A DNA stretch of 61,403 bases, counting the filler, from Sluysia triapertura (Eukaryota), in assembly GCA_046118255.1 (NCBI GenBank). It is 5 parts of 5 records of this genome, joined end to end, with 100 filler letters (N's around TTAATTAATTAA, not from the genome) between each part and the next. Parts side by side here need not be neighbours in the genome. Positions count along the whole stretch, not along the records: positions 50,012 to 61,403 come from JBJNIA010185169.1; 4 more parts are not named here. One strand, given 5' to 3'. The position numbers and the translations under genes are program-made. Numbering within the stretch: the first letter of the stretch is position 1; every line of letters starts with the position of its first letter. Positions 21,603 to 61,403 of the stretch are shown piece after piece. The notes beneath the pieces were generated by a model, which was given only the letters and a program-made list of their open reading frames with translations, ran no database searches and was not told the DNA's origin.

Positions 21603-22200
21603 CTATCGTAATATTTTTAAATGTTTTATCCAAATGAGCAGGCGAAACAGCTCCAACATGAACTTCGATTTTAAATAAACTTTCAGTTTCATTTTGAGAT
21701 AAGCTTTACAGGATTTATTTAACTTTAATTCACCTAGAGTAACATTATCGGCTAGTATCCCGCGTAAGATTAATTTTTGATTTAGCACGGGAACATTTAA
21801 TTTTGATTCTAATAACTTATTTACAACACCAGTAGTTAAATCTACTGGCAAATTTTGAGTAACCATTTCTTCGACTTCACCTTCACATGTAGTATCGGTA
21901 ATTGGATTCAATAACCCAGGTTTAAAATAATTTAAATTTTGTAAATTAGAGACATTCAATTTTGGTTCTAATAATTTCTTTAAATCACCAATGGTTAAAT
22001 CTGCTGGCAAATTATGAGTAAACTTGTCTTTAAGATATACTACAGTAAATTCTAAATAATTTATCTTACCTTCGACTTCATTAATGACTTGTTCACAAAA
22101 CGCAATCGCTGCTTGTTCATTAAAAGTAGGATTTGGAGGATTTGTAACCTCATTGAAACGAGTTTCTAACAATTCATCGCCTTTGCTACATATATTAATC
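21603..22200 (-). CDS. Intronless ORF with tandem ubiquitin-like (UBL) repeats, probably retroelement-derived
   Basis: DLTIGDLKKLLEPKLNV and DLTTGVVNKLLESKLNVPVLNQKLILRGILADNVTLGELKL fit the UBL pattern (TVxxLKxxI...VPxxxQKLIxxG..LxDxxTLxxxxL). Nucleotide duplication 21793-21864/21952-22023. The low-complexity 5' part of the tracked ORF is probably non-coding. Confidence 0.6.
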
Positions 22201-22747
22201 TTTTTTATCTTGTTTTTAAAAGTTAAACACAAATTTTGACATACTAAAAATTGATTAGGTAAATAAATTAGATAAATTTTAAAAAGTTTATAAAAACAAT
22301 AAAAATAATTAAAGTAATAAAAATTATAAAAATTATAAAAATTATAATAGAAATTATAAAAATAATAAAGTAGTAAAGGTAACATTGAGAGTGATGATGA
22401 TGACGGTGTGGATGATAATCAGAGGGGAAAGAACTGTGATGTTGATACAAATAATTTTAGTGAGGTTTAGAGTTTGGAGAACATGATTTATAGTTTATGT
22501 TAATGTGGTAAAGTAACAGTAAAGTGAATAGGTTGGATATGAAATTTTATATATTTTGATGGTGACGAAATTATTAAGATAAGACTGACACAACATCGAC
22601 AAAAGGAAAAATAATATAAGAGACAGAGAATTTCTTAAAAGAAAGGTCGGACGTTTACGGATTAATATATTGATCAGAATAACATAATTTAGTTGGAGAT
22701 CAAATATTCTAGCTGATATTAAACCAATTGGACTAAAGCCCATCACT
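22200..22747 (-). mobile_element. LTR-like segment upstream of the UBL ORF
   Basis: Right end GCCCATCACT (reverse complement AGTGATGGGC) resembles the TGTGATGG LTR-type starts; strand-skewed, with short tandem AAAATTATA repeats. Confidence 0.3.
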
Positions 22748-30219: not shown

Positions 30220-30634
30220 TTATGATGATGTAAGACTGGGTACGAACTGATACAGAGGAACTGCTGCAGTTAGAAGGACTGCTACATCACGACGCTCTAT
30301 TGCTTCACAAGCCTGAATTAACTTCTGCATACTGGCCTCTTTGCCAGCCCTCGCCATCCAGGCTGCTAGTGTAGCCGCTGTGGGACTAGAAGCGGTGTCC
30401 ATACGAGCCATGAGAGCTTTCTCCAGTCCCAGTTGTAAACCTAAAAGACACCAATCTCTTCCACAGGGGTCCGGAGGATCCATGAGACGACACAACCGTC
30501 TCAGAGCAGCAGACCGTAAATTAGACACATGCAGAGAAGGGCCTGGTCGTAACTGCTGCGCAGCCTGTTCTTCGTTGATGAATAATGCTTCTCGGAGATT
30601 CTTATTCATCAAGCCTGTGAGATTGTCGCTGCAT
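30220..30634 (-). CDS. DAPK1: DAPK1-like terminal exon (death domain)
   Basis: RRLCRLMDPPDPCGRDWCLLGLQLGL...IERRDVA matches the DAPK1 death domain (LDPPDPLGKDWCLLAMNLGL). AG acceptor 30635-30636, phase compatible, TAA stop at 30220. Confidence 0.9.
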
Positions 30635-30719
30635 CTGTTTTAAGGACAATGTTTATTAATAAATAAATAAATTTAATTAGAAAGAGTGTTTAGACGTATT
30701 AATCGAAAATACTGTTTCG

Positions 30720-31110
30720 TTATGGTCCATCAAAAGTGTCGTTTGGGAAAATGTGGCAGGAAGAAGAAAACATCAGTGAGAAGTGATAGATATTTGGTGA
30801 AACTTTCTACGATGAATCGTAAAGCTACCAGCTAGGAAGCAGTTAGAGACTTGCTGAATTGACGTTAGTTCTAGAACAGTCAGAAGAAGACTTGTAGACA
30901 ATGGTTTGCGAGCGAGACAACCCAGAAGAAAGGTTGATAAGTAAAAGGATGATCAGTAAACGGTTGGCATAGGCTAAGCAACACCAACATTTAACTAAGG
31001 ATGACCAGAGTCAAGAGTCGTCCTTTCAAGTACTGAATGATAAGAACACCTTTGTAAGAAGGATACCTACTGAGGTGTTGAATTTTAGTATAATAATTGG
31101 GCCACCACTA
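30720..31110 (+). mobile_element. Tc1-like transposon relic in DAPK1 intron
   Basis: GRKKKTSVRSDRYLVKLS...RTVRRRLVDNGLRARQPRRK (Tc1 GRPR motif and second HTH); ends in TIR-like TTGGGCCACCACT-ATA. Confidence 0.75.
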
Positions 31111-33522
31111 TATTTTATCCAATTATAATTTAAAAAATAATTTGTTTTATTTCGCAACCACTTAAAAAAGGAATGAAATGCACGATTATATTTTATTAAT
31201 AATAATGACCAATAATAATAAAGACCAATAGCATCTACGAAATAAGTAATAAGTATTTAGAGTTAAGACATGTTGTTAGACTTCATAAAATTGACTGATC
31301 GGGAATCGAAACCAGGACTTAATAAATAATACTACCTCTGTTCAAATACTGTGTTTATCTCATTTGACTTTTGTTGCTAACTTAACAATATAATAAGATG
31401 ATAATGAGTTATTTGTTAACGAACAATAGAGAATCATAAAATAATAAAATAATTTTACAAATATAATTTCTGAAATTTGTAATTTGTGGCTGTGTACCAA
31501 CAGATAACCCGGTGTTATTTTTTAAGTCCAAATAACTTTAAATTATGGAAATCAAACGTTCTGGAGTAAATTCAGAAATTTAAGTGACGAGAAGAGAAAT
31601 ACCATCCTGCAAACACAATAGGAAATTGCCAAAGGAACTAGCAATTTTGGAAGCAATTGAAACTGCGCGCAATGTATTACGAGATATGTAATAATAATAT
31701 AATTTCTACTAAAATATTTTCATAAATAAAAAACGCGAAATTGATGTTTATATATAAAACTAACGAGACAATCATTTTTGAATGGAGGTAGTATTTTATT
31801 TAAATATATATTAAATAAATATTTATATCACATAATAGAATAGGTCATTATTATTATTTACATCATTATTTTTAAAAGTTAATTTCCTGTAAAGAGAAAT
31901 TGCATAAATATAATCAATTATGAATCACGGTCAAACTGGCTATGTTAATATATGAGGGTTACAGCTGATGGTATAAGAATAAAGTAAACATTATTGAAGA
32001 AATAATATAAAATAATATAAATGTGTTTATAAAATATTTAAATCAAAAAATAAAGAAAAATGCGAAGAAAGAACCAATTGTAATATGATAAAATAACGTT
32101 ATAATTATTGTGCAATATTTAATTTTATTAGTATTCCTAATGTTGAAATATTTTCGTTATTTTAATTAGTTTTTGTAATATAAAATTAAATTTAAATATG
32201 TTTAAAGTTTAAGTATAATTAAAGTATATATTAATCGATGCTCACTAAAATACCAATTAGGTATGTTATTGAAATCTACGGTTGATGCATGACGTATTGT
32301 ACAATATGCTCCGTAAACTTTATTTTTGGCGTCCCCAACTTAATAAAAAATCATAACGCCACTATAAAAAAAATTCATAAATAAACACCTGTACAATAAC
32401 AAAATGTATTTTGCTGTTTCTTATAAATTAAATATTATGAAAACAGTTCTAATCCTTTAGCAAAAATAAAGAAAAATTAACAAAATTAAATTTTAAATCT
32501 TTATATCAAAAAGGAAATATTATGTTTGTTAATATTTCAATTCTTGAAATATTAATATTTTTTATACGTCGCTGTTATTTAATAGCTGCTAGTTCGCGAT
32601 TGTGATAGCAGTGTCTGCTAACGTTATTTTTAATTAACAGCTAAAAAATAGCAGAATATCAAATAGCATAACATTTCTAGTGCACATGTATAATTGCTTT
32701 ATGAATTTGTAAGTATATTTGCTTTGAAATGTTATTCTTGTTGATTGTTCTACATCAATAACGTAAATTAAGGAATTACTTGAATTGGTAAAAAACAACA
32801 AAGAAAAAACAAAACTTTGTAAAATCTAACAATTTTAAAATTTTTAGCAACCAAAATTATTATCACGCACCTTTTGTCCTAGAGAAAGAAATTTGATATT
32901 TAATTAGTTCTATTTATTTTAATTCTACATATTATTTTAATATCAAAATATTAGTGTAATACTGTTATTAAATTTTGATTGTGTTATGTTTATAGGATAA
33001 GTGGGTTGTTTACTTATTGAAATTGGTTGACTTGTGACCGACTAAAGTGAATATTCATTATTTCCATTTTCCTATGCAACTACTAAAAATTGTAATAAAA
33101 TTAGTCAGAAGAAAAATGTAAAGAAAGTTTCATTTCCATTTATGATAAACACTGTGCTTGAGGATTTATCTTTAGCAATCGTCACAGTCTCTTAAGAAAT
33201 ATTACGATTGTTGCGGTTAGTGATACACGTTTCTTTTTTATTTTGAAATCTTTTTATTGGCCGATTTTCTATTGGTATTGTAAAATAATTGATAGTTTGT
33301 TGTTTCTGTGATATTTAAAATATATCGATATTACGAGTTAATTTAATTGTTGAGTTTTCGTTGGATATTTTGAATAAAGGCACGACACAATCATTCATAA
33401 CGTAAAGAATCGATTTCATTTACAAGTTTACTAATCCTTACGCTACTATCAAAAAATGTTATATTCTGTACATTCGCCATGAAAGATCCTAGAAGCAAGA
33501 AATTATTCAATGATAGACAAAC

Positions 33523-34307
33523 CCGTCCTCCAGAATTGCTCGAGCAACTTCTCCTTGCGAATACAAGTCGAACTTGCGGCTCTGCAGAGTGTCCTGTGTG
33601 ATGTGGCCCATGCAGAATATTTCGTAGTCCATGTTAGAACACATCTCACTAATGGTTTGAGTGACCACATTCACAGTGTCTTGAAAAAAACCAAACAAAA
33701 CCAAAAGAGAGTTCGTGGACAAACTCGATCCAGAAAAACCTTTCACCTCGATTACTCGTCCATTATTCTCCAGGGTCAGCAGAACGGCAATGTCTGGATT
33801 GGCACACATTAACATGGATCCACGAAACCACTGATCCAATGTCGCATGGGGTCCTTCGTCGCTTTGTTCTACAACGCTGTGTCGAAGTTGTGCCTGAATA
33901 CGAGGAATCAAATGAACTGCATGACCAGCCCCCATTAGAATCTGAAGACCAATCCATCTCCCATTATTCGAGCTGAAATACTGATCCAAATTTGGAGATT
34001 CTACGAAGTTTAAACATGGAATTTCATACTGAAATTGGGAGTTATCATCTTCGTTCTCATTATTCTCGTCGTCCAATGACTCAACAGGAACCTCCACACA
34101 AAGTTCCAGAGCTGATAATAATTGCAAAAACGAATCTGGTTCCCTCACACCGAGCATTACTTCAATCTCATCACGAGTAAAACTTCCTGTGACACGTGCC
34201 GAACTTATATTATCGAAGGAAAGCAAGTAACCAATCACATCACTGCATAACCAATTCGGACTGAGTACGATTATATCAGGTTCACTTTCGGTATCCAAGT
34301 AGATCAA
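33523..34307 (-). CDS. DAPK1: DAPK1-like exon (COR domain)
   Basis: LIYLDTESEPDIIVLSPNWLCSDVIGYLLS...LLSALELC...PRIQAQLR. AG acceptor 34308-34309; GTTTGT donor at 33522 gives phase 2, matching the death-domain exon. Confidence 0.9.
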
Positions 34308-34733
34308 CTGAATTAATTGAACAGTTAATTCTAAATGAAATGCAACTTATTCGAACATACTGACTGAACATCACGAAGAACCGCGTTACGAGGATTTACT
34401 AGAGTGAATACACTTAATGAATTTTCAAGATAAATAGTCGGAGTTCCTAAATAATCTCAGATAATGGAAATGTAAGAAGAAATCCCAAGTTATTATTGTT
34501 ATTATTGTTTTATTTCGGGGAGGATACATAATACGAATTGAGAAATTTGATGATTTATGAAATTAATCAAAGATTACGAAACAAGAGATTCGTAAATCTT
34601 ACAAGGGTCTAATGAAGAAGATAGAGTTTTTCCTAGAGCTTGTCTTTATGTGTGTGAAGAGTGATGTAAGGGAGCATCTATCAGCATCTTATTTCAATTT
34701 AATAATGTAAATATTGATAGTCCAGGTACGTAC

Positions 34734-34919
34734 TTCTCCCATATATTGAAGTTGTTGAACCAAGTCTTTCAAATGATCTTCATTGCACAGAGGATTGACT
34801 TTGGACCTGACTCGCTCCACAAATTGCTGCCACGACACACAAGGGAAATCCTGACTTGGAATAAGTTCGTGGATCTTAGAAGCAGTTGTGTCAACCAGAA
34901 GATTGGAGCTTGGAAGTCT
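34734..34919 (-). CDS. DAPK1: DAPK1-like exon (ROC/COR junction)
   Basis: RLPSSNLL...SWQQFVERVRSKVNPLCNEDHLKDLVQQLQYMGE, like DAPK1 QQFVYDVQDQLNPLASEEDLRRIAQQLHSTGE; 186 nt, phase 0/0, canonical AG/GT. Confidence 0.9.
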
Positions 34920-35199
34920 CTGAAATACGAAAACATCAAATTAATAATAACGATATATTTAATAGAAATATGGTATACATTTATGAAACAAATAAAATAA
35001 AACTTAAATTTAACATAAAAAAATTATATTATATACATTTTTTAACAAAATATAATTAAATACAAATTTAATTAAAACAAAATAAATATTTTTCAGCTTA
35101 TCATTCTCGCGACGAAGTTTTGTCTTATTTATATGAGGAAGTTTATAAGAATTTCACCTCTGTTAATATAATCGATTCCATATTAATTATGCATTCTTT

Positions 35200-35420
35200 A
35201 TTTTAGCTAAATTTTCCGCATTTATTTTTCTTTTTGAAGAAACATCGGCACATATTTTACATTCTCTGTATTGAGCATGTGTTGTATGCCAAATTCTACT
35301 TACGTTCAGACGGGTTACTAGAAATACAGCTGCAACTTCATTGATTGCACCTGCAGTATATTTTCTAAGGTATGACGTTCATTTTAAGTTTATCAATTTT
35401 CTTCGGAATTTTCCATTTTC
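35200..35420 (-). mobile_element. Mariner-like transposase N-terminal HTH relic
   Basis: GAINEVAAVFLVTRLNVSRIW...DVSSKRKNKCGK resembles the HTH plus xxKxxCGRK linker of mariner-like transposases. Confidence 0.45.
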
Positions 35421-35608
35421 TTATTTGATTTATCGTAATAAAGCTCTTACTATAAGTAGCTCTTACAACACCTGTCAATTATGTTATGTTATGTGACATT
35501 CAATGCTTACAATACTAATTTAATGAATATTGCTATGTGTTTCGATATTCTCGATAATTTACGATTTTTTTGAAATGTATACCATACTTGATATATTAGA
35601 GAACTAAC

Positions 35609-35723
35609 AGCTACAATCTCAGATCGGTAATTAATGAGGACTGTTCGTAGATGTTTTATTTCTGGAGACACTTTATTGGAGCTATCCACATAAACTATAT
35701 CAGAATGGATGTCGAGATTCAAC
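35609..35723 (-). CDS. DAPK1: DAPK1-like exon (ROC C-terminal part)
   Basis: LNLDIHSDIVYVDSSNKVSPEIKHLRTVLINYRSEIVA; AG acceptor 35724-35725, GTTAGT donor; phases compatible on both sides. Confidence 0.8.
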
Positions 35724-35752
35724 CTGAATTATTAACAGAATATTTATTTCAG

Positions 35753-35985
35753 CATTATCATCATTATTATTATCATCATCATTATCATTACGCCCATTAT
35801 TATTATCAGAATTATCATCATCATCACAATCATCTTCATCATCTTCATTATTATTATTATTATCATTATCATTATTCTCATCATGATCACCACCATTATT
35901 ATCGTCATCATCACCATCATCATTATTATTATCATTATCATCATACCCATCCTAACCATTATCATCGTCATCATTATTAATATTA
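35753..35985. repeat. Degenerate (CAT/TAT)n trinucleotide microsatellite in DAPK1 intron
   Basis: Directly visible; produces the spurious His/Tyr-rich and Met/Ile-rich ORFs. Confidence 0.9.
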
Positions 35986-36005
35986 TACTTATTTTGCAAA
36001 CTCAC

Positions 36006-36195
36006 TGAAGGTCTGATTGAAGCTGTTGAAACATACTCGAAATGACTGGATTGTGTATAATTCCTGACATATTACGCTCTCCACCAATTATATTACTGTG
36101 AGTACCTACCACAACAACCTTGGCAACACATGACGCATTGGAATTAGCAGATTTGTGGAACTTTTCACTACCACTATGATGTCTTGTGTATGCAT
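36006..36195 (-). CDS. DAPK1: DAPK1-like exon (ROC domain, G4 region)
   Basis: AKVVVVGTHSNI corresponds to the ROC VVLVATHAD motif; TTTTTCAG acceptor and GTGAGT donor; phase 2 joins the next exon as DLQ|LNLD. Confidence 0.75.
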
Positions 36196-37514
36196 CTGAA
36201 AAATGAACACTTTTAATGAATGTTATTATGCAAAAGATGGTTTTGGTGTTACCTGCAATGTCCTGCAATTATAAAAAAATTAATTTTAAACGGTAATTAA
36301 ATTATCAGACTTAATTAAAAATAAACAATAATCAAGATTATTTTAAAATAAATAAAAAACAATTAAAAGACAATTAAACAAATTACAAAATAAACAAAAT
36401 TCAATTATGAAGTTAACAGAACAAATAGGAACTACATTATTATTTAAGGAAGAACAAATTTGATACAAAACATATAAATATGTCAAGATATCGTCAAGCT
36501 AGATTTTCAGATTTTCTACTGTTCTAAACAAACAAGCGAGTTACTTATATTATCAATTCCATAACGATTTGTCGTAGATAATGAGCAGTTATTACTATAC
36601 TGATCCACAAGATTGCGGAAACAACATTTAATTTTTTGTTAATTGTAAACTTACTGTAGAGTTAAAATTGACATAAACAGCTAATCATTTTCCACAATTA
36701 GTTTAAACTTATCATAAAAACTATATTAAAATATTTTGTGTGCAATAAATTATTTTTATTATCTTAATTGAATTTAGTAATTTACTCGTGTAAAGTTTTG
36801 TGCAATAAACTTTACGAGTTTAGAAATTTTGATTTAGCAGAAAACGGTAAACTAGGTAAAAAGAGTTTCAAAAGGTTTTGTTGGCCTATCTATACATACG
36901 TCTCCTAATAGGTGCAAAACGTATAGTATAGACGAACCCGCTATAATATTTTGCATAACAAATTTTTGATGAAATGCGTATGAAGTACAGAATATGATTA
37001 TTATTGTAATTTGAATTAGTTTAGAGAGTTCTGATTTATTTAGTGTATTATTGGTTAGAGTGGGTAATATACGAAATTAGGATTTGGTGTTAATTGGAAA
37101 AGAATATTTTAGTTTTTGAATTATATGTTTATTGTATTTGCACAGAGTTTTATTTTAAGTGGTCGAAGTCGATTTTAATGGTTAGTTAATCAGAAAAATG
37201 AGTTGCGTGTCACTACAACATCTGTTGTGATCTGCTATCTCTTATATAATTTATACAAGAATTTGATATATAATTTTTATACTCCACGGTTATCATGCTT
37301 ATGTCTGCGACGGTTCTATGATACTGAATCTTGTATCAATAACAATTACACGGTTTAAGAATTGTATAACCGTCAGAAGAAATCTCAATCTCCGAATAGT
37401 ACCAACTAATCTTGTAATGATGTTGTTTCTCACCGTTATTAATGATAGAAAATCATCAACATCAGAAACCGTATATATATTTAAGAATAATAGATAATTG
37501 TATTTATATCCTTA

Positions 37515-50011: not shown

Positions 50012-51532
50012 GGTGACCTCTTTGCATTACCAAATAAATCCAACGGTTGGCCGTTAAGTCAGTAAGTCCAATACGTTGGTGGACTCACCTTTTTTAATTT
50101 TATTCTTCACGTAACATTATTTTACAATATGAATACAAGAATTAATATATTAAGATTTCTTTTAATATTCCAAATAAAAATTTAAATTTGATTTTAAATT
50201 CCAGCTTTAAACTAGTAGGAAAGCTTTAAGATTTTAAGTGATATTTTGATTTTTAACTTAACCTATAATATTAAAACTTTCGATCTTAGAATAAAGCAGG
50301 TATTTCTGATACGGAATCAGTAACCAGACACGTAATAATCAGATTGTGAAATAATTTCTGGAATTTAGTTAACGTCACTTAGCGTTCGGAGAATATTGAT
50401 CTTGTGCTATTGATTTCTCAGACATATAACATTTACCTGGATACGATAATTTTGATTTGTTAAAAGAAATTCGACGTTAATCTGTCAATTTAATTTTACC
50501 AGGATCTTATAATGCCAATATTAGAAACGATTATTGCACAGAACGTTAAATAACTAGTCAAAAAAGTTATTGTTTGACGCTATGAGACTACTTTTTAGTA
50601 AGTCATTTGTACATTTAAAATTTTATTGATCATTTTGCTGAGTTTTTCTTTAAAAAACTTTATCCTCAAAATAAGATGAACTTATAGAGGCATATCTACA
50701 AGAAAAACTTAAGAACGTAATTAAGATTTGATTAAATGTGTTTGTACTAAAATGTAATGCTTATGTATGAATCAATCAAGGGTTTTTAAATTTTATTATC
50801 AATAACTATCAAATGAAAAATTAGTAACTAATACAAATAAATGACAATCAACAATGCTAATGTTTATTAACAAAAATTATCTTAGATTAATATAATTCCA
50901 ATGTTTATAATAATATTATACAAAAATTTCACTTAAACTTTATCTGCAATATTAGAATATTATAGCCAGTCTTAAAAGCTTGATGAATTTCCGTGATATT
51001 TTATAGCTCCTCAAAATGAGAGGTTTCCTTAATAATAACAAACTTACGATCTAATTTCAAACTACTGATAAATATTTTCTCCAAATGCTTCGCTAATAGT
51101 CATATATAGATAATTGATCACACTTCTTATTTTATGGGGTAATTGCATATTCTCTTGTTACTATTTTACTAACTAATTGTTACACTTTGTGACTGAAAAT
51201 TGTATATCTCTTGTAGGTTAAACGAATTGTGCAAGTTTGTTAAAAATTTATACTTTTATATGATTTGGTATATAAAATATATATTAAATTAAATTTTTTA
51301 ATATATTTTAATAAAATTTTAGTATATATTAAATTAAAATTTTATATTACTATTTTAATGTATTTAATAACGAAATTTTATTATTTTCAAAAATTATTAA
51401 TAAATATCTAACTTTTTTATGAATAATTAAATTTTATTTTTTTAAAGTAACTTTAAAAATGCAATTGTTATTTTTAAAATTATTATTAAAGTTATAGGTT
51501 TGGATGATGCAAGAGTGTTCATTAACAAATCG

Positions 51533-51580
51533 TATTATCATTATTGTTATTATTATTATTGTTATTATTATTATTATTAC

Positions 51581-51617
<37 letters not shown>
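51533..51617. repeat. Imperfect (ATT)n microsatellite
   Basis: Directly visible; source of the poly-Ile ORF. Confidence 0.9.
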
Positions 51618-52205
51618 GTTCTGCTTTTACTAGTTCAAAACAATTATAATATTAATACGATATGGGTCCGCCTATGTAATACGATTTATCTTTCGAAAAG
51701 GACGTATCCGCAGGAATAATCAGTTCTACGAAAAGAAAACTTAACTCTTAATGCGTAATAATTAATAAGGGTCTTTTCTTGAATGATATCATAAAACTTT
51801 TATTCTCACAATTCCTTGTTGGGTGTTTTAGAATCAATGTAAAAGGAATTTAATTTACTCTATCAATCCTAGTTGCGGTTAACTTCTATTTTATGTTAAT
51901 TTCTTGATTTCGAATAGAACTTTCTTTAATTAGACACGTGTCTTTTTAACTAAGAATGACACAAAAGTCGTAATAATTTTTATTAATCAAATACTAAAAA
52001 TTCTTTAGACAAAATTTAAAATAATAATAAGTATATTTATGATTGTAATGCACAAATATAAAAATTAGCAAAAATGAATTTTAGTTAGGATTTTGATCCA
52101 GGCGAATGCTTGGATTTGTTAATAAATGCAAAAATTATTAGTGCATAGACCTTTATAAAACTAGCTTCCTATTATTCACTATAATTTATTTAATTCCAAT
52201 GATAG

Positions 52206-52290
52206 TAGCGTCCTAATGAATTTCAGATAGATATCTCCACAAAAGACAGCGTCCTGATAAACTCCAGATATATATCTTCCACTAAAAACA
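52206..52290. repeat. Two-copy ~42-bp tandem repeat
   Basis: AGCGTCCTAATGAATTTCAGATAGATATCTCCAC / AGCGTCCTGATAAACTCCAGATATATATCTTCCAC; lies in the putative 3' UTR/LTR of the gypsy element. Confidence 0.7.
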
Positions 52291-53789
52291 GAATGTGTAA
52301 GGAGGAATTCTTTGGAACTGCGTGAAGTTTATTGTAAAAATCGATATGTAACTTCCAAAATAGTGTGTGGAATTTCCAGAATCTAATCCTCACGATAAAG
52401 TATTGTTTTTTAGTAAATTATATTTGATCTAAGCATTCTTATCCTATTTATATGGAAGTCGAATAGACTATTTAGACTATTTGCATAAAATAACGAATTA
52501 CATAATAATGTTTCAATTACTAATGTTTTTACATAATACTAATTTTTATACATTATTAATATTTATACGATTCATTTGTGATATTTCTAATAACTTTACA
52601 ATATAAATTATTTCTTTATCGTTGTTACCAATTTATTTATTAATTACATAAACAATTTTTACGTAAACACATTTACAATATCTACAATATTTACAATATT
52701 TCCCCATCAGGGAAGATTCGTCTCGAATCATAGGAGTATTGTAAATGAAATAAAAGAATATATAAAACGTAAACACGACGAAAGTTGGTTATAAAGAGTA
52801 AGAATCACCAGAAATCATCAAAAATTGTCCAAGTCTACGTCCGAATCATCAGTCTAAGTCACCGGATCCACGGTACAAAAGCCGTATTCAGTCCGAATGG
52901 TACACGGGTCGGTCGAGGAGAGTCTGAAAATGATATAGGATGTTGTTATGACATTTTTGGTGGTGGCGAAGGCGATGGAGACATGTTTGATTGAAGCGCT
53001 GAAGGTGATGTCGATGTTGGCATGGTCAATGGTTTTTACTGTAGACGATGATGCTAATGGTACTGAATGATAAGCAGACGGTGCCACGAAAGTATTATCA
53101 GGAGTAGAATGAGTAGGAAAAAGTGAATGAGGAATAAAAGTTAGATCTTTCTCACGGATTAGGTCCAGCAAGGCAACTAACTCGAAAGACATCCGTGAGC
53201 ATGTCATTCGAGGAGGTATCGGATAAAGTAATCTAAAAGTCTGTCTGCCCCTTAAGATAGCATTATCCGTAGTATACGATAAGAGGTTGTTGTTGGATAA
53301 ATTAATAAGACCGAACCGAAAGGTAGGTTCAAGTCTCTGATAATAAGACGTGGGTTCAAAGACACCATGATCTTATCGTGAGGATGTCGTCTATATCTTT
53401 TGCCTCGGAAATGTCTGAATCTTTAATTTCCTGAATATCCCGCACGAAGTTTTTAATGCGTAGGCAAGGTATTATGTTTTATCTGTATGGTGTTGCTTGG
53501 AGTATGGAACGCAAGATATTTGAGTAACACGAGGGCGATCCATAAAATCATAAGCGTTTGAATACGCGATGAAAGTCAAGCGGTCCTCATCATAAGCAGA
53601 CATGGGTGAAATATGTCTGCCAGCGTGCTAAATTGGCAGTCTCATCCATATATATAGACTGGTGGATTCGACATATGCATTTGATACAAGGTCAATTCAT
53701 CACAAACTTGGAGAACTAATAGTTGTGGTATAATCATATTTGAACCTGGTGGTATTTTTATAAAACCATATTTACTGTGGATGACCATA

Positions 53790-54085
53790 TCTTCCAGTTT
53801 ATTGATAACATTCATATCCAATATTAGTTCATAGGGGCTGCTATCTCAAACATTTATTATGACTTGTACATATTGTCCTAATACTTCTATATAGCACAAT
53901 AAAGTTCCGTTGATATTTACGGTGTTTGATTAACATTATATATTACCGAACTGGTCTATTTAAGAACACTGATTCCCAGGTAGTTAGAAAGTTTTTATGA
54001 ACCACTGAAATAGTAGCGCCTGTATCTACGATTGCCTTAACCCATCGCCCATTGAAACGTACATTTTGCATTATATGAGCCAAAT
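53790..54085 (-). pseudogene. Second retropepsin-like aspartic protease, downstream of integrase
   Basis: VRFNGRWVKAIVDTGATISV (DTGA at 54015-54026), then NINGTLLCYIEVLG...PYELILDMNVI (decayed ILG motif); absent from the ORF track. Confidence 0.8.
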
Positions 54086-54229
54086 CATTTCCATGAGAAT
54101 GTATCATGTCTCACTTGTTTATGTCGTAGTGCATGAATTGAGGATGGTTTATCTTCATCCTTGTGTTTTGGCTGAATTTTCAATCTAGATTTTTGTACTT
54201 TTCTATTCCTTAAACTATATTCCTCTTTC

Positions 54230-55330
54230 GATGCCATCTTGCATCTATTGACTTGTACTACAAACGTTTCGGAATCAATTTTATTAGGATCATTAACAAA
54301 CACATTTTTGTTATTACATAAGGTCCTTTAAAAGGTTTATTTAACTTAGGTGATTGACCTGGTTTAGTTATTTGATAATCTATTAATACATCGTCAGCTA
54401 TTTTAAAATTGTGTTCTTTAGCTGTTTTATCGTAGGTATCCTTATATATTTGCTGTGAATATTTAATTTGAAGACCTGCTCGCTTCCATGCGTCCTGTAA
54501 TTGTTCCCTCATTGTAGTTACATATTCTGGAATCTCCAAGTAATTTGAAGTTGGAGGATCCCATTCTAAATCTACTGGCATATTAGAGTGTCTCCTGTAC
54601 ATTAAATAAAATGGCGTGAAATTAGTTGGTGGATGTACAGAACTTCTATATGCAAAAAGACATAGTGCTCTATATAAGTCCCAGTGAGTTTGTCTATCGT
54701 TTACATAAGATTGGATCATATTGATGAGAGTTCTATTAAAACGTTCCACTAATCTATCGGTTTGTGAATGGTAAGGCGATGTGTAAATTCGAAGTATATT
54801 AAAAATTTTTGCTACATCGCTAGTACAGTTAGTTCCTTGGTCTGTCAGTAATTTACGAGGCGTACCATATCTGTAGATAATTTTTTCTACCAATATTTGT
54901 GCCACAGTTTCGGCTTTTTGATTGGGCATCGGATAAACCTCTGGCCATTTAGCTAAATAATCCGCAAATACAATAATATTCTTATTACCGTTAATGGTCT
55001 CTGGAAGAGGACCCATAATATCCATAGCGGTAAATTCCATTGGTGATAATGGTACAGGCATGGGTTTTAGTGGTACCTTAGTCTTTTGTCCAGTATTTTT
55101 TCGTCAGCAACATATTAAACAATCCTTGCACCATTTTCTGATATCTGATTCCATATTTTCCCAATAGTATGTGTTTTTGATTCTCGACAATGTTTTTCTT
55201 GTTGATAGATGACCTCCTAATTCTCCGTCGTGAAACTCTATTAAAATAGGTATGATTAATGATTCTGGTATGATAGTTTTCCATTCATCTTTACTATTCT
55301 TAAATCTTAATATCCCATCCATAATAGCTA
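54230..55330 (-). pseudogene. Gypsy integrase (HHCC zinc finger, DDE core, GPY/F)
   Basis: FHDGELGGHLS...CKDCLIC; AMDIMGP, LTDQG, VERFNRTL; FKGPYVI; VQVNRCK; frameshifted. Confidence 0.95.
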
Positions 55331-55494
55331 ATCTTTTTGTTTGCAGTTTATTCAAGGTTCCCTTGGCCAAGGCATCTAAAATAGTCGAGATTTCTTTTTT
55401 TTCTCTCTGATGCTTAATAATCTCTTCACAGTTCTGCATCTTTCCCGATATTGTCATAATTTGTATCAAATTGATATATCACTTATCATCTACA

Positions 55495-55900
55495 TTTGTC
55501 AATCTAGACATACAGTCAGCCCCGTTATTTAGGCTACCTGGCTTATAAACAATTTCCAAATTAAATTCTGATAATTTATTAAACCACCTGTTGAGTCTAT
55601 TGACTTCGTCTCTGTGATTACACAAACATGTCAAAGGTTTGTGATCAGTATACAAATAAACTTTTGTCCTAGCAAATAATGTCTAAACAATTTACATACA
55701 TATACTATTGCTAGACATTCTTTCTCTACAGTCGAATAATTCATCTCTGCTTTGTTAAGTCTTCTACTGGCTTATGCTATGACTGTTCGAGATTATTTTT
55801 ATCTTTCTGACCTAAAATTGCGCAAATAGCATAATTACTGGCGTCCATAGTTAGTATGAAAAGTTTATTAACATCCGGCAATATTAATATTGGCGCTATG
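55495..55900 (-). pseudogene. Gypsy RNase H
   Basis: [63 protein letters not shown]. Confidence 0.93.
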
Positions 55901-56720
55901 GTTAGATGTTCCTTTAGTTCTTTGAATGCTTTTGTCTGCTTTTCAGTCCATTTAAATTCCACGCCATTTTTTGTTACCTTTCTAAGGGCTTGTGCAATTT
56001 TTGCAAAATTTCTAACAAACCTCTTATAACAATTAGCTAAACCTAGTAAACTCTGAACCTTTTTAACGTTGTCTGGTTGAGAGAACTTGATCACGTTTTC
56101 AATATTTCTCGGGTTTGGTTTAATACCATCTTTAGATACTCTATATGTCCTAAGAATTCGAGCTTTTCTTCTTCTCATACACATTTTATAGGTTTTATCT
56201 TAAGTCTGGCAACTTCTAACCTTTTCAGAATATTATCTATATCCTCTAAATGAGTTATAAAATCCTTTGAGAATATTATAATGTCATCTATATATACCAT
56301 GACATTCTTACATCCTGATACTACAAAATTCATGCAACGTTGAAAAGTTGCCGGTGTGCCAGTTAAACCAAAGGGCATTTTTTCTGCTATCTCTATCTGC
56401 CAATATCCACTTTGTAAATCTATAGTTGTAAAATATGTAACATTCCCTAATTTGTCTAACATCTCGTCTATTCGTGGTAGTGAGAATACATATTTTCGAG
56501 TAATCTTATTCAATTCTCTGAAATCTATACAGAATCGTATCGTGCCATCCTTCTTTTTAACGAGTAATACTGGTGATGAAAAAGGAAAGAAACTTGGTCT
56601 TATCACTCCAACCTTTTTCATAGTATCAATTTGATCTTGCATTTCTTTTTGATTACAAATAGGATTTCTGTAAGGTTTCCTTCGAATTACTTTATCCTCT
56701 GTTAGTGGTATTTCGTGTTT
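55900..56720 (-). pseudogene. Gypsy reverse transcriptase
   Basis: SSPVLLVKKKDGTIRFCIDFRELN, DLQSGYWQI, MPFGL..TPATFQR, VYIDDIIIFS; internal deletion and frameshifts. Confidence 0.96.
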
Positions 56721-57239
56721 TATAATTACAGAATCTCCAATATCATATTTGTTTTTTGAAATTGCTCTTGGATACTTATATATAACTTCGTATAGTTGTT
56801 CTTTTTGTTTTTTAGTTAGATTTTTGTTATTAATTTGAATTTCTCCGTAATCTTCTTCTGTGTGTCACGTTGTAATTTTATTGTATTAGTTTTCATATCT
56901 GTCACTGTGTTAATATGTGTTGGTATTTTATAATTAACAATTCTTCCCAATTTAGTGCCTGTAAATAACCATTTATTATCGTTATTATAATTTATAAGTC
57001 GAACGGGTATTTTTTTCTTCACAATTATTACATATTGAATCTGCAATACCTATATCCAGTTTCTGAATCTTTAAACATAATTGGGCCAGTTAATGAACTA
57101 TTTGTTTTTGCTGGGCATTATGTATTCGGTTCTACTTAATAACCACAATGGTTCGTCAACATAAACGTCATCATCGTCGATAGTTCTATTTGAATAACTG
57201 TCCATTCGTTTGACAATATCAAAATCTAGTATTACTCCT

Positions 57240-57480
57240 TTTAGTTGTGATAGTATATCCATTCCCAGTATCATGTCTTCTGGACATTTTTTTGACTCTC
57301 AATTTTACGTCAACTTTACTCTGTCCTATTTTGCACACAACCTTCATTACTCCAACAATGTGTATGGCATCTCCAGTTACTCCTGATAAATGTGAAAAAT
57401 GATTTGCAAGGTTTCCTTGTTCCTTTTCTGTCAATTGTTTTCATTAATTAATGATGTTACTGCTCCTGTATTATCATATA
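57240..57480 (-). pseudogene. Canonical (pre-RT) aspartic protease, decayed
   Basis: NTGAVTSLIN (57461-57472; D to N at the catalytic site), flap LSGVTGDAIHIVG, and EDMILGMDIL in a shifted frame. Confidence 0.8.
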
Positions 57481-57679
57481 TACTACATTTGGGGATTTGG
57501 ATAAAATTTATCTCTTTGAGTATCTTTTTGTATGTCATTTCGTGATCTTCTAAGATTTTCCTTTAATTCTTCAATTTCTTCATTTTCATCATTTTGAATT
57601 GTTTGCAATGCTACATTTTCATTTTCCGTTCTTGTTCTTTCATTTCTTAACACATTTATTTGTGAATTAGCATGGTGGT

Positions 57680-58926
57680 GTAACAAATACTTTGCGTTGT
57701 TACTGGTTCTAAATAAGTTTCTATTTTTCCATATATTATTGGTAATTCATTTAACTTCCACTTTTTTATACCTATAAGTGTGTAGTACTTCTTCCGTTAA
57801 TCTACAAATACGCCTTCTTCTAAGGGTAATAATTGTGCAACCAGATCGGGATTTGTTATGACTACTGCCAGTTTTGTACGTAGTATTTCTTTGTTCAGCC
57901 GGCAATCCCGAGCATTTATAATTTGATAAATTTTTTCTAAAGACATAAACACAAGATGATAGTAGAAGTCTGTCTTATTATTAAAATAACTATTTAATTT
58001 TATATTTTTTGAATCTATTCCTTCTTTGGCCTGTAATATTGTTTTTTCAGAAAGGTAAATACCTTGATATTTGGTTTCGATAATTTCATTTCCAAATCTT
58101 ATTATTGTTCCTTTTGATTTGAAAATTAATCCATCTTCTTTTTTACTGGCCATCATAATGGTAGGAGTTCCTATTTAATCTAATGTTTTACGTTGTAGTT
58201 GTTCCTTTTTGTTTATTTCTTCAATTGGTAGATCATCATTATTCTGGTAGACAAATCCGGATGCTAAATTTGTTTATTTGTTTAAAAATATTAAAGGACA
58301 CTGAAACTTATCCAATTCATATATTAGAGTGGTTTCACTTGTATCACAACTTGTTTGATCCATTTGGCAAAATGATCTAGACATCAATGTGTTTTTTTCA
58401 ATATCAAAACTTTCATTAAATGATTTCATACTTACTACAAAAGTTTCTTGAGCTACAACATTGTTATATTTTTTTTCCTTCATATTCTATAGATCCTTGT
58501 TCGCATGTTCCATCTGTCAGCACGTTTCCGGTAGTCCTAATATTATAAATAATTTTTTCATTATTTCTTACTCTTAATTTATCTCCTTCAACCAATCCTA
58601 TATATCCGGTCTCGAAAGCATCTCTACAATTATTCGGTAAAATCTTGAATGGTTTTAATACATGCGGTAACTCTATTATCGATGAATGACTATGGTGTCT
58701 ACAATATTGCCACTGATCTTTTTACCATACATTCTCTAACCAGTGCTGTTATCAAATTTCCTTCTTGGTAAACACTAAAGACTTTAGTTTCTTTTATCTG
58801 GATTCTAATGGGTCGAGATTCCGAGCAGTCTTCCGTATCTAGTAATGAGAACTTCTTGCCAACTTGTGGTTGATTACAATCAAAAGCTTTTATTGAACCA
58901 GATTTGTTTATATCAAACATAGCCAA
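57680..58926 (-). pseudogene. Envelope glycoprotein of chuvirus type (predicted class III/gB-like), C-terminally truncated
   Basis: Ordered motifs AFDC..FSLLDTEDC, ECMVKRS, YCRHHSHSS, CRDAFETG, GNVLTDGTC, NNVVAQ, YFNNK, DCRLNKEIL...NPD, EEVLHTY, NELPI match the motif order I recall for Chuviridae glycoproteins (GYDC..LSLLDVGEC, YCGMHSH, DGxC, NVVVQ, YxNSK, CxLERQxL, GEVxH, CYNELPV). Confidence 0.8.
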
Positions 58927-58931
58927 TATTA

Positions 58932-59400
58932 TTATCCTAATCGTGGTATAGCTGTATTTAACATATTATTGTTTCCGAATAAGTTTGTAAATAAATTTGA
59001 TGTTTCTTTGAGTTTTTGATTCTCTTTTCCTTTAATTATATCTCTCCATCCTCCTTGTTCTTCAATCCATAACTTTGTTTTCTTATTAACAAATGCTATA
59101 ACCTTATTTACTTTATTCTTATCAATTATCCTTTCCTTATTACATTGAAACACGGTGTAAGCTAAAATTATTTTAAATCTTTCTCTATTTATCTCCTTAC
59201 TAAGTTTTTTTATTAAATATTGATTTACACTGTCCATTCTCTATAAAATTACCAACTTCTTTGTCCTTATATTTCTCCTCTAATTGTTTTATAAGTTTTA
59301 TTATTGTACTCTTATAGTCCTTTATTTTGGGTAATAATTTCTTATATTTACTGAAGTGTGTAAACGTATTAGATAGAAACGCATAGACTACATTTTTTGT
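58932..59400 (-). pseudogene. Bcl-2-like domain
   Basis: BH2 WIEEQGGW (59046-59069) preceded at Bcl-2-like spacing by a decayed BH1, EINRERFKIILAY (consensus NWGRIVALFxF); upstream helices frameshifted. Confidence 0.7.
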
Positions 59401-59679
59401 ATCTAATTCTAAAATTTCTTCTTCATTTTCGTCTATTATTTAATTGTCAAATCTATAACGTTTTTTCGAACAGTATATCTTCTTCATTTTTTAATTGTAT
59501 TTGTTTCCTTGTGGCTGGTTTCAATGTGTGGATTTTTGTTAAGATCCACTATATAATCAGGTTCTTCTATTGTGTCATTATTTTTAGTTATTTCATTATC
59601 ATTTTCATCCATTAATTGTCTTAAGAATGACTGATATATTTTCGAATAAGGTTTCATATTGGGTAGTCTTGTTGGTAGT

Positions 59680-59900
59680 AACAGCTTTTATTAGTTTCTC
59701 TTGGTTCCCTAATGGGTAACCATAATTGTTAAGAATGTCTGTAGGAATTAAATATCTGTTATCATAGAATAAGTCCACGTTCGAAATTGATGGATCATTC
59801 GATTTTATTATGTTAATAATGTCTTGAACCAAAGAATTTACTGATAATTCCATAAAAATATTGATAAGTCCATTTAATGATATATTAATTTTCATTAACA
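59680..59900 (-). pseudogene. Ubiquitin-like domain
   Basis: MKINISLNGLINIFMELSVNSLVQDIINIIKS..VDLFYDNRYLIPTDILNNYG follows the ubiquitin beta-grasp pattern (MQIFV..ITLEV...TIENVK..I...LIFAGKQLEDGRTLSDYN). Confidence 0.6.
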
Positions 59901-60392
59901 TACGTGGATCAGTTTTTCTTTCCATTAATGCAATCTTTTTAAATATCTTTCTTGCTTTATATTGATGAGGGTTGCTGGATTCACTTAATATAATCAAGCT
60001 TGGTTTGATACTCTGTGCATTAAACATATTTTTAAACATCTAAATTCAAAATTTTATCCAAATTTTTATCTATAAAAGTCATCATTTTCTAATTCAGTAA
60101 GAAATGCCTTTATCTCTTCAATCAATGATGGTTCTGGAGTATCCATTTTTCTTTGGTTATCCAAGTCAACTATTTGTTCTTCCTCTTCATTACCTAATAT
60201 AATTATTGAATCTAAATCTTCAATTATATCATCGACTAGGTCATCTTCATTAATTGACTCATCTGTTTGGGTGGTTAATTCTTCTTCGTTTATTGTGTTA
60301 TTATCTTTTCCCATCTTCTAATAATTGCATCGACCTTCTTATTTTCTTCTTCTATCTCTTCCGTAGTTATTTTCTGTTGTTTTTTACTACTC

Positions 60393-61000
60393 TCAACGTT
60401 TTCTTTTTATCTTCATACTCCTTTTACGAAAGAAGTAATTGATGAACGTTTCATCCTCGTCTTCTTGTTCTATCTTTCTCCTTTCTTCGTTTATATCCAT
60501 ACAATCTAGTTTTGCTCTACGAAACTCACGTAACATTTCTTCTTCTTCATATGTTAGTCTTATTGGATATTTTTCTAAACCAAAGTCTTCATAATCTTCA
60601 TCATAATTACAATTTATCTGTCGCTTGTCTTCAAACTTTACTTTTATTGGACAACGTTGTCTGTTTTTATTGAGATTTTGTTTGAAGGTTTCGGATTTCA
60701 ACTTGTTGAAATTGCAGGCATAGTGTCCTGGTTTGTTACAGTTATGGCATATTATTTCTCCTTCGGTATTAGTTCTTGTTTTGTAATTATTATAATTTGA
60801 TCGGAAAGAACTTTTACTTCTATCGAAATTATTTCTTTGTCCATCATTACTTGGCCATCTGGGAGAGGGTCGTTGCTTGTCATCTTTAGAACCATTGTTC
60901 GAATAATTTTTGGCAAATCCCTTTGTGGCCCTTCTTGAATTTTGATAGTTTATCTCTGAATTCTGATTATCTCTTTCTGTTCCTGAATTATGAAAATTAT
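60393..61000 (-). pseudogene. Gag C-terminus with nucleocapsid zinc knuckle, followed by an acidic/charged region
   Basis: N/R/S-rich linker then RTNTEGEIICHNCNKPGHYACNF (CX2CX4HX4C with the last Cys lost, 60708-60749), in frame with ORF 60393-60701. Confidence 0.8.
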
Positions 61001-61403
61001 TTATTTACTTTATTTTAATTTTTACTTAAAATAATAAAATAAAAAAGATTACCACATGCATGGACCTTATGTTCATTGCGGGTAATATTGTGTGATTGTA
61101 CCACTATGTTGTAAAATTTTTAAATTTTTCATTTTATACTCTTTCATAATCCCAAGTCTCACAATCAAATACTCTCTCACACAAATCATCAAAACTTCTT
61201 TGAGAATTAAACCGGTAATAACAACTTTGACAATTACATGGTACGGTCAGTCAAACATCGTTATGTACAAAACACACGAATATGATTTATTATCAACCAT
61301 AATTTTCTTTTCTTTAATCAATCTATTTGTTGGGATTAGTAAAGAATAAGGGTTGATAGAAGGGTCAAAACTTAGGACTGCAGTGTCAGTGGAACATTAT
61401 TAA

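What the first reader, a model, noticed from the sequence alone, without database searches (positions are those of the whole stretch)
57680..58926. Chuvirus-type fusion glycoprotein in a Ty3/gypsy element, upstream of pol
Seen: about ten Cys-anchored motifs in the order typical of Chuviridae G, across four frameshifted pieces. Established: chuvirus glycoproteins occur as env in mosquito BEL/Pao (Anakin) elements and are predicted class III, gB-like fusogens; insect errantiviruses classically use baculovirus F-type env placed 3' of pol. Inference: an independent capture, or a retroelement reservoir of this fusogen, in an unusual gene position.
Basis: partly seen in the sequence, partly recalled or inferred. 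Interest (0 to 1): 0.85.

Follow-up and report, generated by a model that had tools for sequence, protein, structure and literature searches.

The report
Decayed Burro-type enveloped retrotransposon copy
This is a broken, partly deleted copy of a Ty3/gypsy retrotransposon that carries a chuvirus-like fusion-protein gene in front of its polymerase, and it is likely a member of the already described flatworm 'Burro' family, so the odd gene order is real but not new.

Summary
Observation confirmed. On the minus strand, 58,947-57,698 encodes collinear pieces of a Monjiviricetes/chuvirus-type fusion glycoprotein (PF24664). It keeps 10 of 14 invariant cysteines and lies before PR-RT-RNaseH-IN of a Ty3/gypsy element. 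The copy is dead: it has frameshifts and three stops, and the last ectodomain part and membrane anchor are missing. Intact relatives encode gag knuckle, (ubiquitin-like), (Bcl-2-like), G and pol as one 2,600-4,800-aa polyprotein. A relative's predicted fold matches chu-like virus G (E 1.8e-38) and herpes gB (E 4e-12). Arkhipova and Yushenova 2019 describe this order (Ubi/SUMO-BCL2-env-PR-dUTPase-RT) in planarian Burro elements, and Chary and Hayashi 2026 describe GAG-ENV-POL gB-type gypsy elements in flatworms, nematodes and bryozoans. Three window motifs occur in their env table only in Schmidtea rows. The window's RT groups with the G-carrying polyproteins, so G was likely inherited with pol, not captured here. 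The host phylum is not proven. Open lead: G's internal signal sequence may double as the tail anchor of the Bcl-2-like domain.

The parts
61033..61403 (.). Very high-copy segment at the window end; possible LTR or a second repeat. No partner in the window.
   Evidence: Summed contig depth 390,000 in run X1; no blastn partner; no gag capsid hit
60393..61004 (-). gag C-terminal part with one CCHC zinc knuckle (~60,750-60,715); capsid part not detected
   Evidence: zf-CCHC E 0.004; relatives' gag profile hits only the knuckle region, E 0.006
60066..60317 (-). Acidic linker
   Evidence: Sequence
59644..59910 (-). Probable ubiquitin-like domain (weak)
   Evidence: Atlas rank 4, ubiquitin-like, 0.91, 146 of 256 features; no Pfam hit; relatives-only profile does not find it; relatives carry PF00240/PF11976 at this position
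59019..59439 (-). Bcl-2-like domain in two frames, ending in a BH2-like W-x4-GGW motif
   Evidence: PF00452 E 0.017; relatives-only profile E 1.5e-5 vs reversed control 0.5; alignment profile finds Bcl-2A1 and Bcl-xL at E 0.001-0.002
58905..58947 (-). Hydrophobic, signal-peptide-like segment ~19 aa before the first conserved Cys motif of G
   Evidence: Hydropathy 2.25; same segment in 15 of 15 scored relatives
58705..58947 (-). Fusion glycoprotein G, piece 1
   Evidence: PF24664 6-82; relatives' profile E 1e-23
58467..58721 (-). G, piece 2
   Evidence: PF24664 84-156; E 2e-18
57698..58486 (-). G, piece 3, with three in-frame stops; homology ends ~57,698; last ectodomain part and TM anchor absent
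   Evidence: PF24664 248-368; E 2e-61; TM-like segment at slice 553-583 in 13 of 15 relatives has no window match
57750..57806 (-). G, short off-frame piece 4
   Evidence: Profile 394-412, E 0.35; weak tblastn piece
57200..57523 (-). Degenerate first aspartic protease
   Evidence: tblastn to relatives' protease region 57,386-57,233; no Pfam hit for 57,380-57,523
56906..57205 (-). Conserved PR-RT linker (the position called dUTPase-like in Burro), with stops
   Evidence: 30% identity to L002; no PDB or Pfam hit
56142..56864 (-). Reverse transcriptase, ~18 codons shorter than a relative
   Evidence: RVT_1 E 4.6e-21; tblastn
55479..56199 (-). Connection and RNase H, frameshifted
   Evidence: RT_RNaseH_2 E 4.8e-15, RT_RNaseH E 1.1e-5
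54258..55478 (-). Integrase (H2C2, core, GPY/F), with stops
   Evidence: Integrase_H2C2 E 6.7e-19, rve E 4e-7
53708..54080 (-). Second aspartic protease after integrase
   Evidence: gag-asp_proteas E 7.4e-6; same spacing after GPY/F in P0124 and P0173

Best explanation
This is a decayed, internally deleted copy of a Ty3/gypsy LTR retroelement whose chuvirus-type fusion gene lies between gag and pol, likely a Burro-type planarian element that inherited the gene with its pol. In intact relatives one long ORF encodes gag knuckle, optional ubiquitin-like and Bcl-2-like domains, G, then PR-RT-RNaseH-IN (shown). Predicted working: an internal hydrophobic segment sends G into the ER and is cut by signal peptidase. 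G's C-terminal helix stops transfer, so Gag and Pol stay cytosolic and the element's proteases release them. G would trimerise as a class III, gB-like fusogen on budding particles and carry the element between cells (inferred, untested). The Bcl-2-like domain would dampen apoptosis of the producing cell (inferred). This copy cannot do any of this: G is frameshifted, has stops and has lost its anchor, and pol is also broken (shown).
For: PF24664 collinear hits. 49 relatives of G among 1.84 billion proteins, best E 1.5e-40, 36% identity. Of 18 scanned, 17 carry PF24664, 11 have protease and/or RT after G in the same protein, and 5 have RT-RNaseH; 2 more. Loci L001 and L002 hold single ORFs of at least 3,426 and 3,703 aa with G before PR-RT-RH-IN. 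Model of relative P0125 (pLDDT 75) matches chu-like virus G best (E 1.8e-38, 21% identity) and herpes gB (E 4e-12). Window RT sits in an 11-row clade (99/96) with 5 G-in-ORF polyproteins (53 of 128 rows used). P0136 has CCHC-ubiquitin-Bcl-2-G in order; L002 hits PF11976, the family named for Burro. This order is given for Burro in PMC6431247. Three window motifs occur in the PMC13524379 env table only in Schmidtea C1a rows (5, 1 and 1 occurrences). All parts lie in one high-copy family in run X1.
Against: No named Burro sequence was aligned by a program; the link rests on domain order and a by-eye and motif match to a supplement, and the motifs were picked after two Schmidtea rows had been seen. 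Host phylum is unresolved (best DAPK matches 31-32%). No MATH, BIR, ankyrin or Smc hit in the window. The ubiquitin-like call for the window is weak (negative). The BH2-like motif is in only 5 of 16 long relatives. The Bcl-2 model is low-confidence (pLDDT 55.5) and its fold search is inconclusive. No LTR pair or capsid domain in the window. The G tree does not place the window firmly. Foldseek TM-scores to gB are low (0.17-0.29 by query). Fusion activity and particles are untested.
Confidence: 0.8

Rival explanations
1. A chuvirus RNA was retrotranscribed and integrated recently as an endogenous viral element inside or next to a gypsy element (independent capture, as proposed for mosquito Anakin).
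For: Best structural matches are chu-like virus glycoproteins; G is truncated; gypsy fragments are often found next to Jingchuvirales G in arthropods (PMC10084718 abstract).
Against: The window piece is 32-39% identical to retroelement polyprotein G, whereas its intact relative is at most 21% identical to viral G. G and RT share nearest relatives. The upstream Bcl-2-like domain and downstream second protease are shared with those polyproteins. G depth (32,000-84,000) lies within the range of pol in run X1.
Confidence: 0.05
2. Same architecture, but a separate GAG-ENV-POL lineage in a non-triclad host (another flatworm, a bryozoan or another ciliated invertebrate), so a range extension or sister family of Burro.
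For: Host not identified; long branches for window RT (0.86) and G (1.64); GAG-ENV-POL elements are not monophyletic and occur in several phyla; Burro's MATH, BIR and ankyrin cargo not seen.
Against: Motif match only to Schmidtea rows; the window's cysteines line up by eye with the six Schmidtea C1a rows and not with the nematode rows on the same page; ubiquitin/Bcl-2 order as in Burro; AT-rich flanks (25% GC) fit triclads (recalled); a CFAP57 gene argues against a nematode, since nematodes lack motile cilia (recalled). Long branches are expected from decay.
Confidence: 0.13
3. A host-domesticated, secreted G fragment (restriction factor-like) whose anchor was lost adaptively.
For: Signal-like segment kept, TM lost.
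Against: At least three frameshifts and three stops within G, and 3 invariant Cys lost; pol decays alike.
Confidence: 0.02

Closest known systems
Burro / GYPSM1 giant gypsy-like LTR retrotransposons of planarians (PMC6431247 section 7, read in full; Grohme 2018 and Jurka 2007 known only through it)
   Same: env in frame between gag and pol in relatives; env similar to mononegavirus-type fusion proteins; order CCHC, Ubi/SUMO-like, BCL2-like, env, PR, linker, RT, RH, IN; high copy; decayed copies with stops and frameshifts also reported for Dugesia japonica
   Different: One knuckle rather than two or three; no MATH, BIR, ankyrin or Smc detected; about 7.5 kb seen rather than 25-30 kb; second protease after integrase; LTRs not seen
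Platyhelminthes GAG-ENV-POL errantiviruses with HSV/gB-type env, cysteine type C1a (Smed_errantivirus_1-6; PMC13524379, section 5 part 1 of 2, section 6, passages, supplements 1 and 2 in part)
   Same: Gene order, class III fold, cysteine positions by eye and three short motifs
   Different: Those are intact; the passages read do not mention Bcl-2 (0 occurrences)
Chuviridae / Jingchuvirales glycoprotein G (PF24664)
   Same: Family profile; best structural neighbours
   Different: At most 21% identity to the intact relative; here a domain of a retroelement polyprotein
Anakin: mosquito BEL/Pao elements with chuvirus-like G (Dezordi 2020; seen as a search listing and as cited in PMC13524379)
   Same: Same fusogen family serving as env
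   Different: Ty3/gypsy pol here; no BEL/Pao-type domain among the Pfam hits of the window or of 18 relatives
Herpesvirus gB (class III fusogens)
   Same: Foldseek E 4e-12 across most of the ectodomain of relative P0125
   Different: 9-13% identity, low global TM-score; different virus group

Membership tests
Monjiviricetes/chuvirus-type fusion glycoprotein (PF24664) | Profile match above the curated cut-off, collinear | tested here: met
   44.2 and 30.7 bits vs cut-off 27; first piece 19.7 bits
Monjiviricetes/chuvirus-type fusion glycoprotein (PF24664) | Conserved cysteine scaffold | tested here: met
   10 of 14 invariant Cys kept, 1 unsure, 3 lost
Class III (gB-like) fusogen | gB/G-like fold | tested here: met
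   On intact relative P0125, not on the window copy: gB E 4e-12, chu-like G E 1.8e-38
Class III (gB-like) fusogen | C-terminal transmembrane anchor | tested here: not met
   Absent in this copy; present in 13 of 15 relatives. The copy is not a working fusogen gene.
Class III (gB-like) fusogen | Trimer formation and membrane fusion | not testable with these tools
   Needs experiment
Ty3/gypsy (Metaviridae) | PR-RT-RNaseH-IN order with gypsy-type RNase H, H2C2 integrase and GPY/F | tested here: met
Ty3/gypsy (Metaviridae) | Paired LTRs, primer-binding site, target-site duplication | tested here: inconclusive
   No repeat pair found; the window ends inside a high-copy segment
Burro | env in frame between gag and pol in one polyprotein | tested here: met
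   Order met in the window; single ORF shown in relatives L002, L001, P0124, P0126, P0143, P0151, P0173, P0176
Burro | BCL2-like domain before env | tested here: met
   By sequence profile (5 of 6 rows hit PF00452; E 1.5e-5); fold check inconclusive
Burro | Ubi2/SUMO-like domain before BCL2 | tested here: inconclusive
   Atlas lead 0.91; Pfam and relatives-only profile negative for the window; weakly positive in L002 and P0136
Burro | dUTPase-like region between PR and RT | tested here: inconclusive
   Conserved linker present; no profile hit; the paper used HHpred
Burro | MATH, BIR, ankyrin, Smc accessory domains (variable among Burro elements) | tested here: inconclusive
   None in window ORFs scanned; ankyrin in relative P0173; the copy is truncated
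Burro | RT groups with named Burro sequences | not testable with these tools
   No named Burro sequence held; RT groups with unnamed G-carrying polyproteins
Burro | Giant size (over 25 kb) and triclad host | tested here: inconclusive
   About 7.5 kb seen; host has CFAP57 and DAPK-like genes, 25% GC, phylum unresolved
BEL/Pao Anakin | BEL/Pao-type pol and gag domains | tested here: not met
   Only gypsy-type RNase H and integrase families hit

The most novel reading that the evidence does not exclude
The family is a true enveloped flatworm retrovirus with a flavivirus-like single-polyprotein layout. One hydrophobic segment serves twice: as the internal signal peptide of the class III fusogen and, after signal-peptidase cleavage, as the C-terminal membrane anchor of a viral Bcl-2 that keeps the producing cell alive. 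The segment sits 16-24 aa before G's first Cys motif in 15 of 15 scored relatives, and 27-58 aa after the BH2-like motif in the 5 of 16 that have one.
Probability: 0.2. Interest if true: 0.65.

Novelty: new member of a known kind. Interest (0 to 1): 0.2.

Why it matters
As a locus it matters little: it is a dead copy of a described kind. It does join two papers. The Burro env of the 2019 review and the HSV/gB-type GAG-ENV-POL errantiviruses of the 2026 survey appear to be the same kind of element, and current profiles and folds place this env with chuvirus-type class III fusogens rather than F-type gypsy env. If the Bcl-2-like domain is functional and membrane-anchored by G's signal, it would be a retroelement-borne apoptosis inhibitor in an animal group that relies on stem cells and cell turnover.

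Tried and rejected
Word-indexed search with the G piece found nothing among longer proteins; the full HMMER search did. No host genome is held. A viral-contig scan with the G alignment could not be seeded. A genome-contig scan with P0126 found no locus. P0126 is labelled as a bacterial MAG protein; I read it as eukaryotic contamination (inference). The Atlas gave no usable hit for the Bcl-2-like piece. Single-sequence PDB searches were weak: Bok E 1.9, no ubiquitin hit. The ubiquitin alignment reached NEDD8 only at E 0.26-0.9. Bcl-2 fold search: best Z 6.7 to unrelated helical proteins, BHRF1 Z 6.2 over 114 residues at rank 6, not discriminating. The dUTPase call could not be reproduced. The DAPK search did not identify the host. 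No RNA holder listed. Run X1 may be the window's own source, and summed contig depth is not a copy number. No tRNA genes. Earlier scan notes: none. Grohme 2018 was not obtainable; Sacco 2022 did not appear in the listing. Searches for Bcl-2 in env-carrying LTR elements listed only the 2019 review as relevant; the listing for particles in planarians showed nothing on point. I did not search specifically for the dual-use anchor idea. No named chuvirus or Anakin sequences were held, so direction of transfer is untested.

Full report
Observation. The minus strand of 58,947-57,698 encodes pieces of one glycoprotein. Three pieces hit PF24664 (Monjiviricetes_fusion) in collinear order, two above the curated cut-off. 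A profile built from 15 intact relatives finds them at E 1e-23, 2e-18 and 2e-61, plus a short fourth off-frame piece at 57,806-57,750 (E 0.35); the best reversed control is E 0.78. Three stops lie in the long piece. Of 14 cysteines invariant in 15 of 15 relatives, the window keeps 10, lacks 3 and has one at an unsure alignment edge. Homology ends near 57,698. The last ectodomain part and the TM helix, seen in 13 of 15 relatives, have no match in 50,100-61,403.

Surroundings. Reading the minus strand from 61.4 kb: a very high-copy end segment; a gag tail with one CCHC knuckle and no detectable capsid; an acidic linker; a probable ubiquitin-like ORF; a Bcl-2-like domain; G; a degenerate protease; a conserved linker; RT, RNase H and integrase; and a second protease. 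Pol is broken by frameshifts, stops and an ~18-codon gap in RT. No LTR pair was found. In one public run, 21,004 contigs were laid on 50,100-61,403. Summed depth was 7,800-133,000 over 54,247-61,032 (G bins 32,000-84,000) against 38-157 in the four lowest flank bins. This shows a repeat family that includes G and its upstream cargo; it is not a copy number, and the run may be the window's source. The flanks are 25% GC and hold exons of CFAP57 (E 5e-28 to a PDB CFAP57 chain) and a DAPK-like gene. The host is therefore a ciliated animal, probably not a nematode (recalled knowledge); its phylum is not established.

Relatives. HMMER over 1.84 billion proteins gave 49 hits for the long G piece, best E 1.5e-40. 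Of 18 scanned, 17 carry PF24664, 11 continue into protease and/or RT, and 5 into RT-RNase H. Two cluster members of 4,844 and 3,003 aa do too. Two metagenome loci hold single ORFs of at least 3,426 and 3,703 aa with G before pol. The window RT falls in an 11-row clade (99/96) with five of these polyproteins and five pol-only proteins (53 of 128 rows used after thinning). Two of the pol-only proteins share contig lengths with G hits, so they are probably parts of the same elements (inferred). The G tree is unresolved for the window. G and pol thus have the same kin, which argues against a capture specific to this copy.

Fold. The intact relative P0125 was modelled with a 35-row alignment, one row of which was a pol-only protein included by mistake (pLDDT 75, pTM 0.48). 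Foldseek ranks chu-like virus glycoproteins first (Tacheng tick virus 4, E 1.8e-38, 21% identity; its chuvirus status is recalled). In the PDB all listed rows are herpesvirus gB (best E 4e-12, TM-scores by query 0.16-0.29).

Cargo. The Bcl-2-like call rests on PF00452 E 0.017 for the window, 5 of 6 alignment rows hitting PF00452, and PDB Bcl-2 proteins as top profile hits (rows were chosen by the motif, so this is partly circular). A relatives-only profile hits the window at E 1.5e-5 against 0.5 for the reversed control. The fold test was inconclusive. The BH2-like motif is present in 5 of 16 long relatives. The ubiquitin-like call is weaker for the window (lead; negative), though L002 and P0136 hit ubiquitin families at that position.

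Mechanism. Shown: single-ORF layout in relatives; a hydrophobic segment 16-24 aa before G's first Cys motif in 15 of 15 scored relatives (13 at hydropathy 2.3 or more, background 5 of 92 blocks; P0126 was not parsed); a TM helix after the ectodomain; pol directly after. Inferred: internal signal, ER translocation, stop-transfer, proteolytic release, a trimeric class III fusogen on budding particles, and apoptosis damping by the Bcl-2-like domain. Speculative: the signal segment remains as the Bcl-2-like domain's tail anchor. This copy can do none of it.

Comparison with what is known. PMC6431247 section 7 (read in full) describes planarian Burro elements with a single polyprotein, Ubi2/SUMO-like then BCL-2 then env similar to mononegavirus fusion proteins, then PR, dUTPase-like and RT, and calls it the first in-frame env between gag and pol. 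PMC13524379 (abstract, section 5 part 1 of 2, section 6, passages) reports HSV/gB-type env as widespread in gypsy elements, notes its likeness to Chuviridae G, and finds GAG-ENV-POL order in Nematoda, Bryozoa and Platyhelminthes. Its supplement lists six Schmidtea elements. Three short window motifs occur in its env alignment file only in Schmidtea rows. Caveats: long cells are cut, gaps can split motifs, and I chose the motifs after seeing two such rows. PMC10084718 was seen as an abstract and Dezordi 2020 as a listing. Figures of these papers were not seen.

Verdict. This is most likely a decayed Burro-type copy: new member of a known kind, interest 0.2.

Noticed in passing
window 13.5-18.9 kb, minus strand: Exons of a CFAP57 (WDR65) motile-cilia gene; one exon tested against PDB, others WD40-like.
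   Followed up: partly
window 30,220-36,270, minus strand: DAPK-like gene (COR-like and death-domain exons), only 31-32% identical to anything found; its exons are GC-richer than the flanks.
   Followed up: partly
window 21,603-22,418, minus strand: ORF with a ubiquitin-like domain (PF00240 E 2e-5) after a low-complexity stretch; possibly another mobile-element remnant.
   Followed up: no
window 53,708-54,080, minus strand: Second aspartic protease after integrase, at the same spacing as in P0124 and P0173; P0173 has seven protease-like motifs.
   Followed up: partly
P0005, P0006, P0007, P0010, P0012 (closest pol relatives): Pol continues 360-480 aa past integrase into what looks by eye like a signal, ectodomain and TM helix: an extra type I membrane protein of no clear family.
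   Followed up: no
L001 10,617-12,107 and L002 12,085-13,473: Accessory ORFs after the polyprotein hit an RNase_T-family exonuclease (E 1e-5 and 1e-3).
   Followed up: no
P0126 (HBK71150.1): A G-pol polyprotein deposited as a Flavobacteriaceae MAG protein; likely eukaryotic contamination.
   Followed up: partly
window 9,224-9,440, minus strand: Small RNase H-like retroelement remnant.
   Followed up: no
window 14.3, 26.5, 37.5, 43.4 and 49.9 kb: Assembly gaps (N runs) that create the apparent long repeats.
   Followed up: yes
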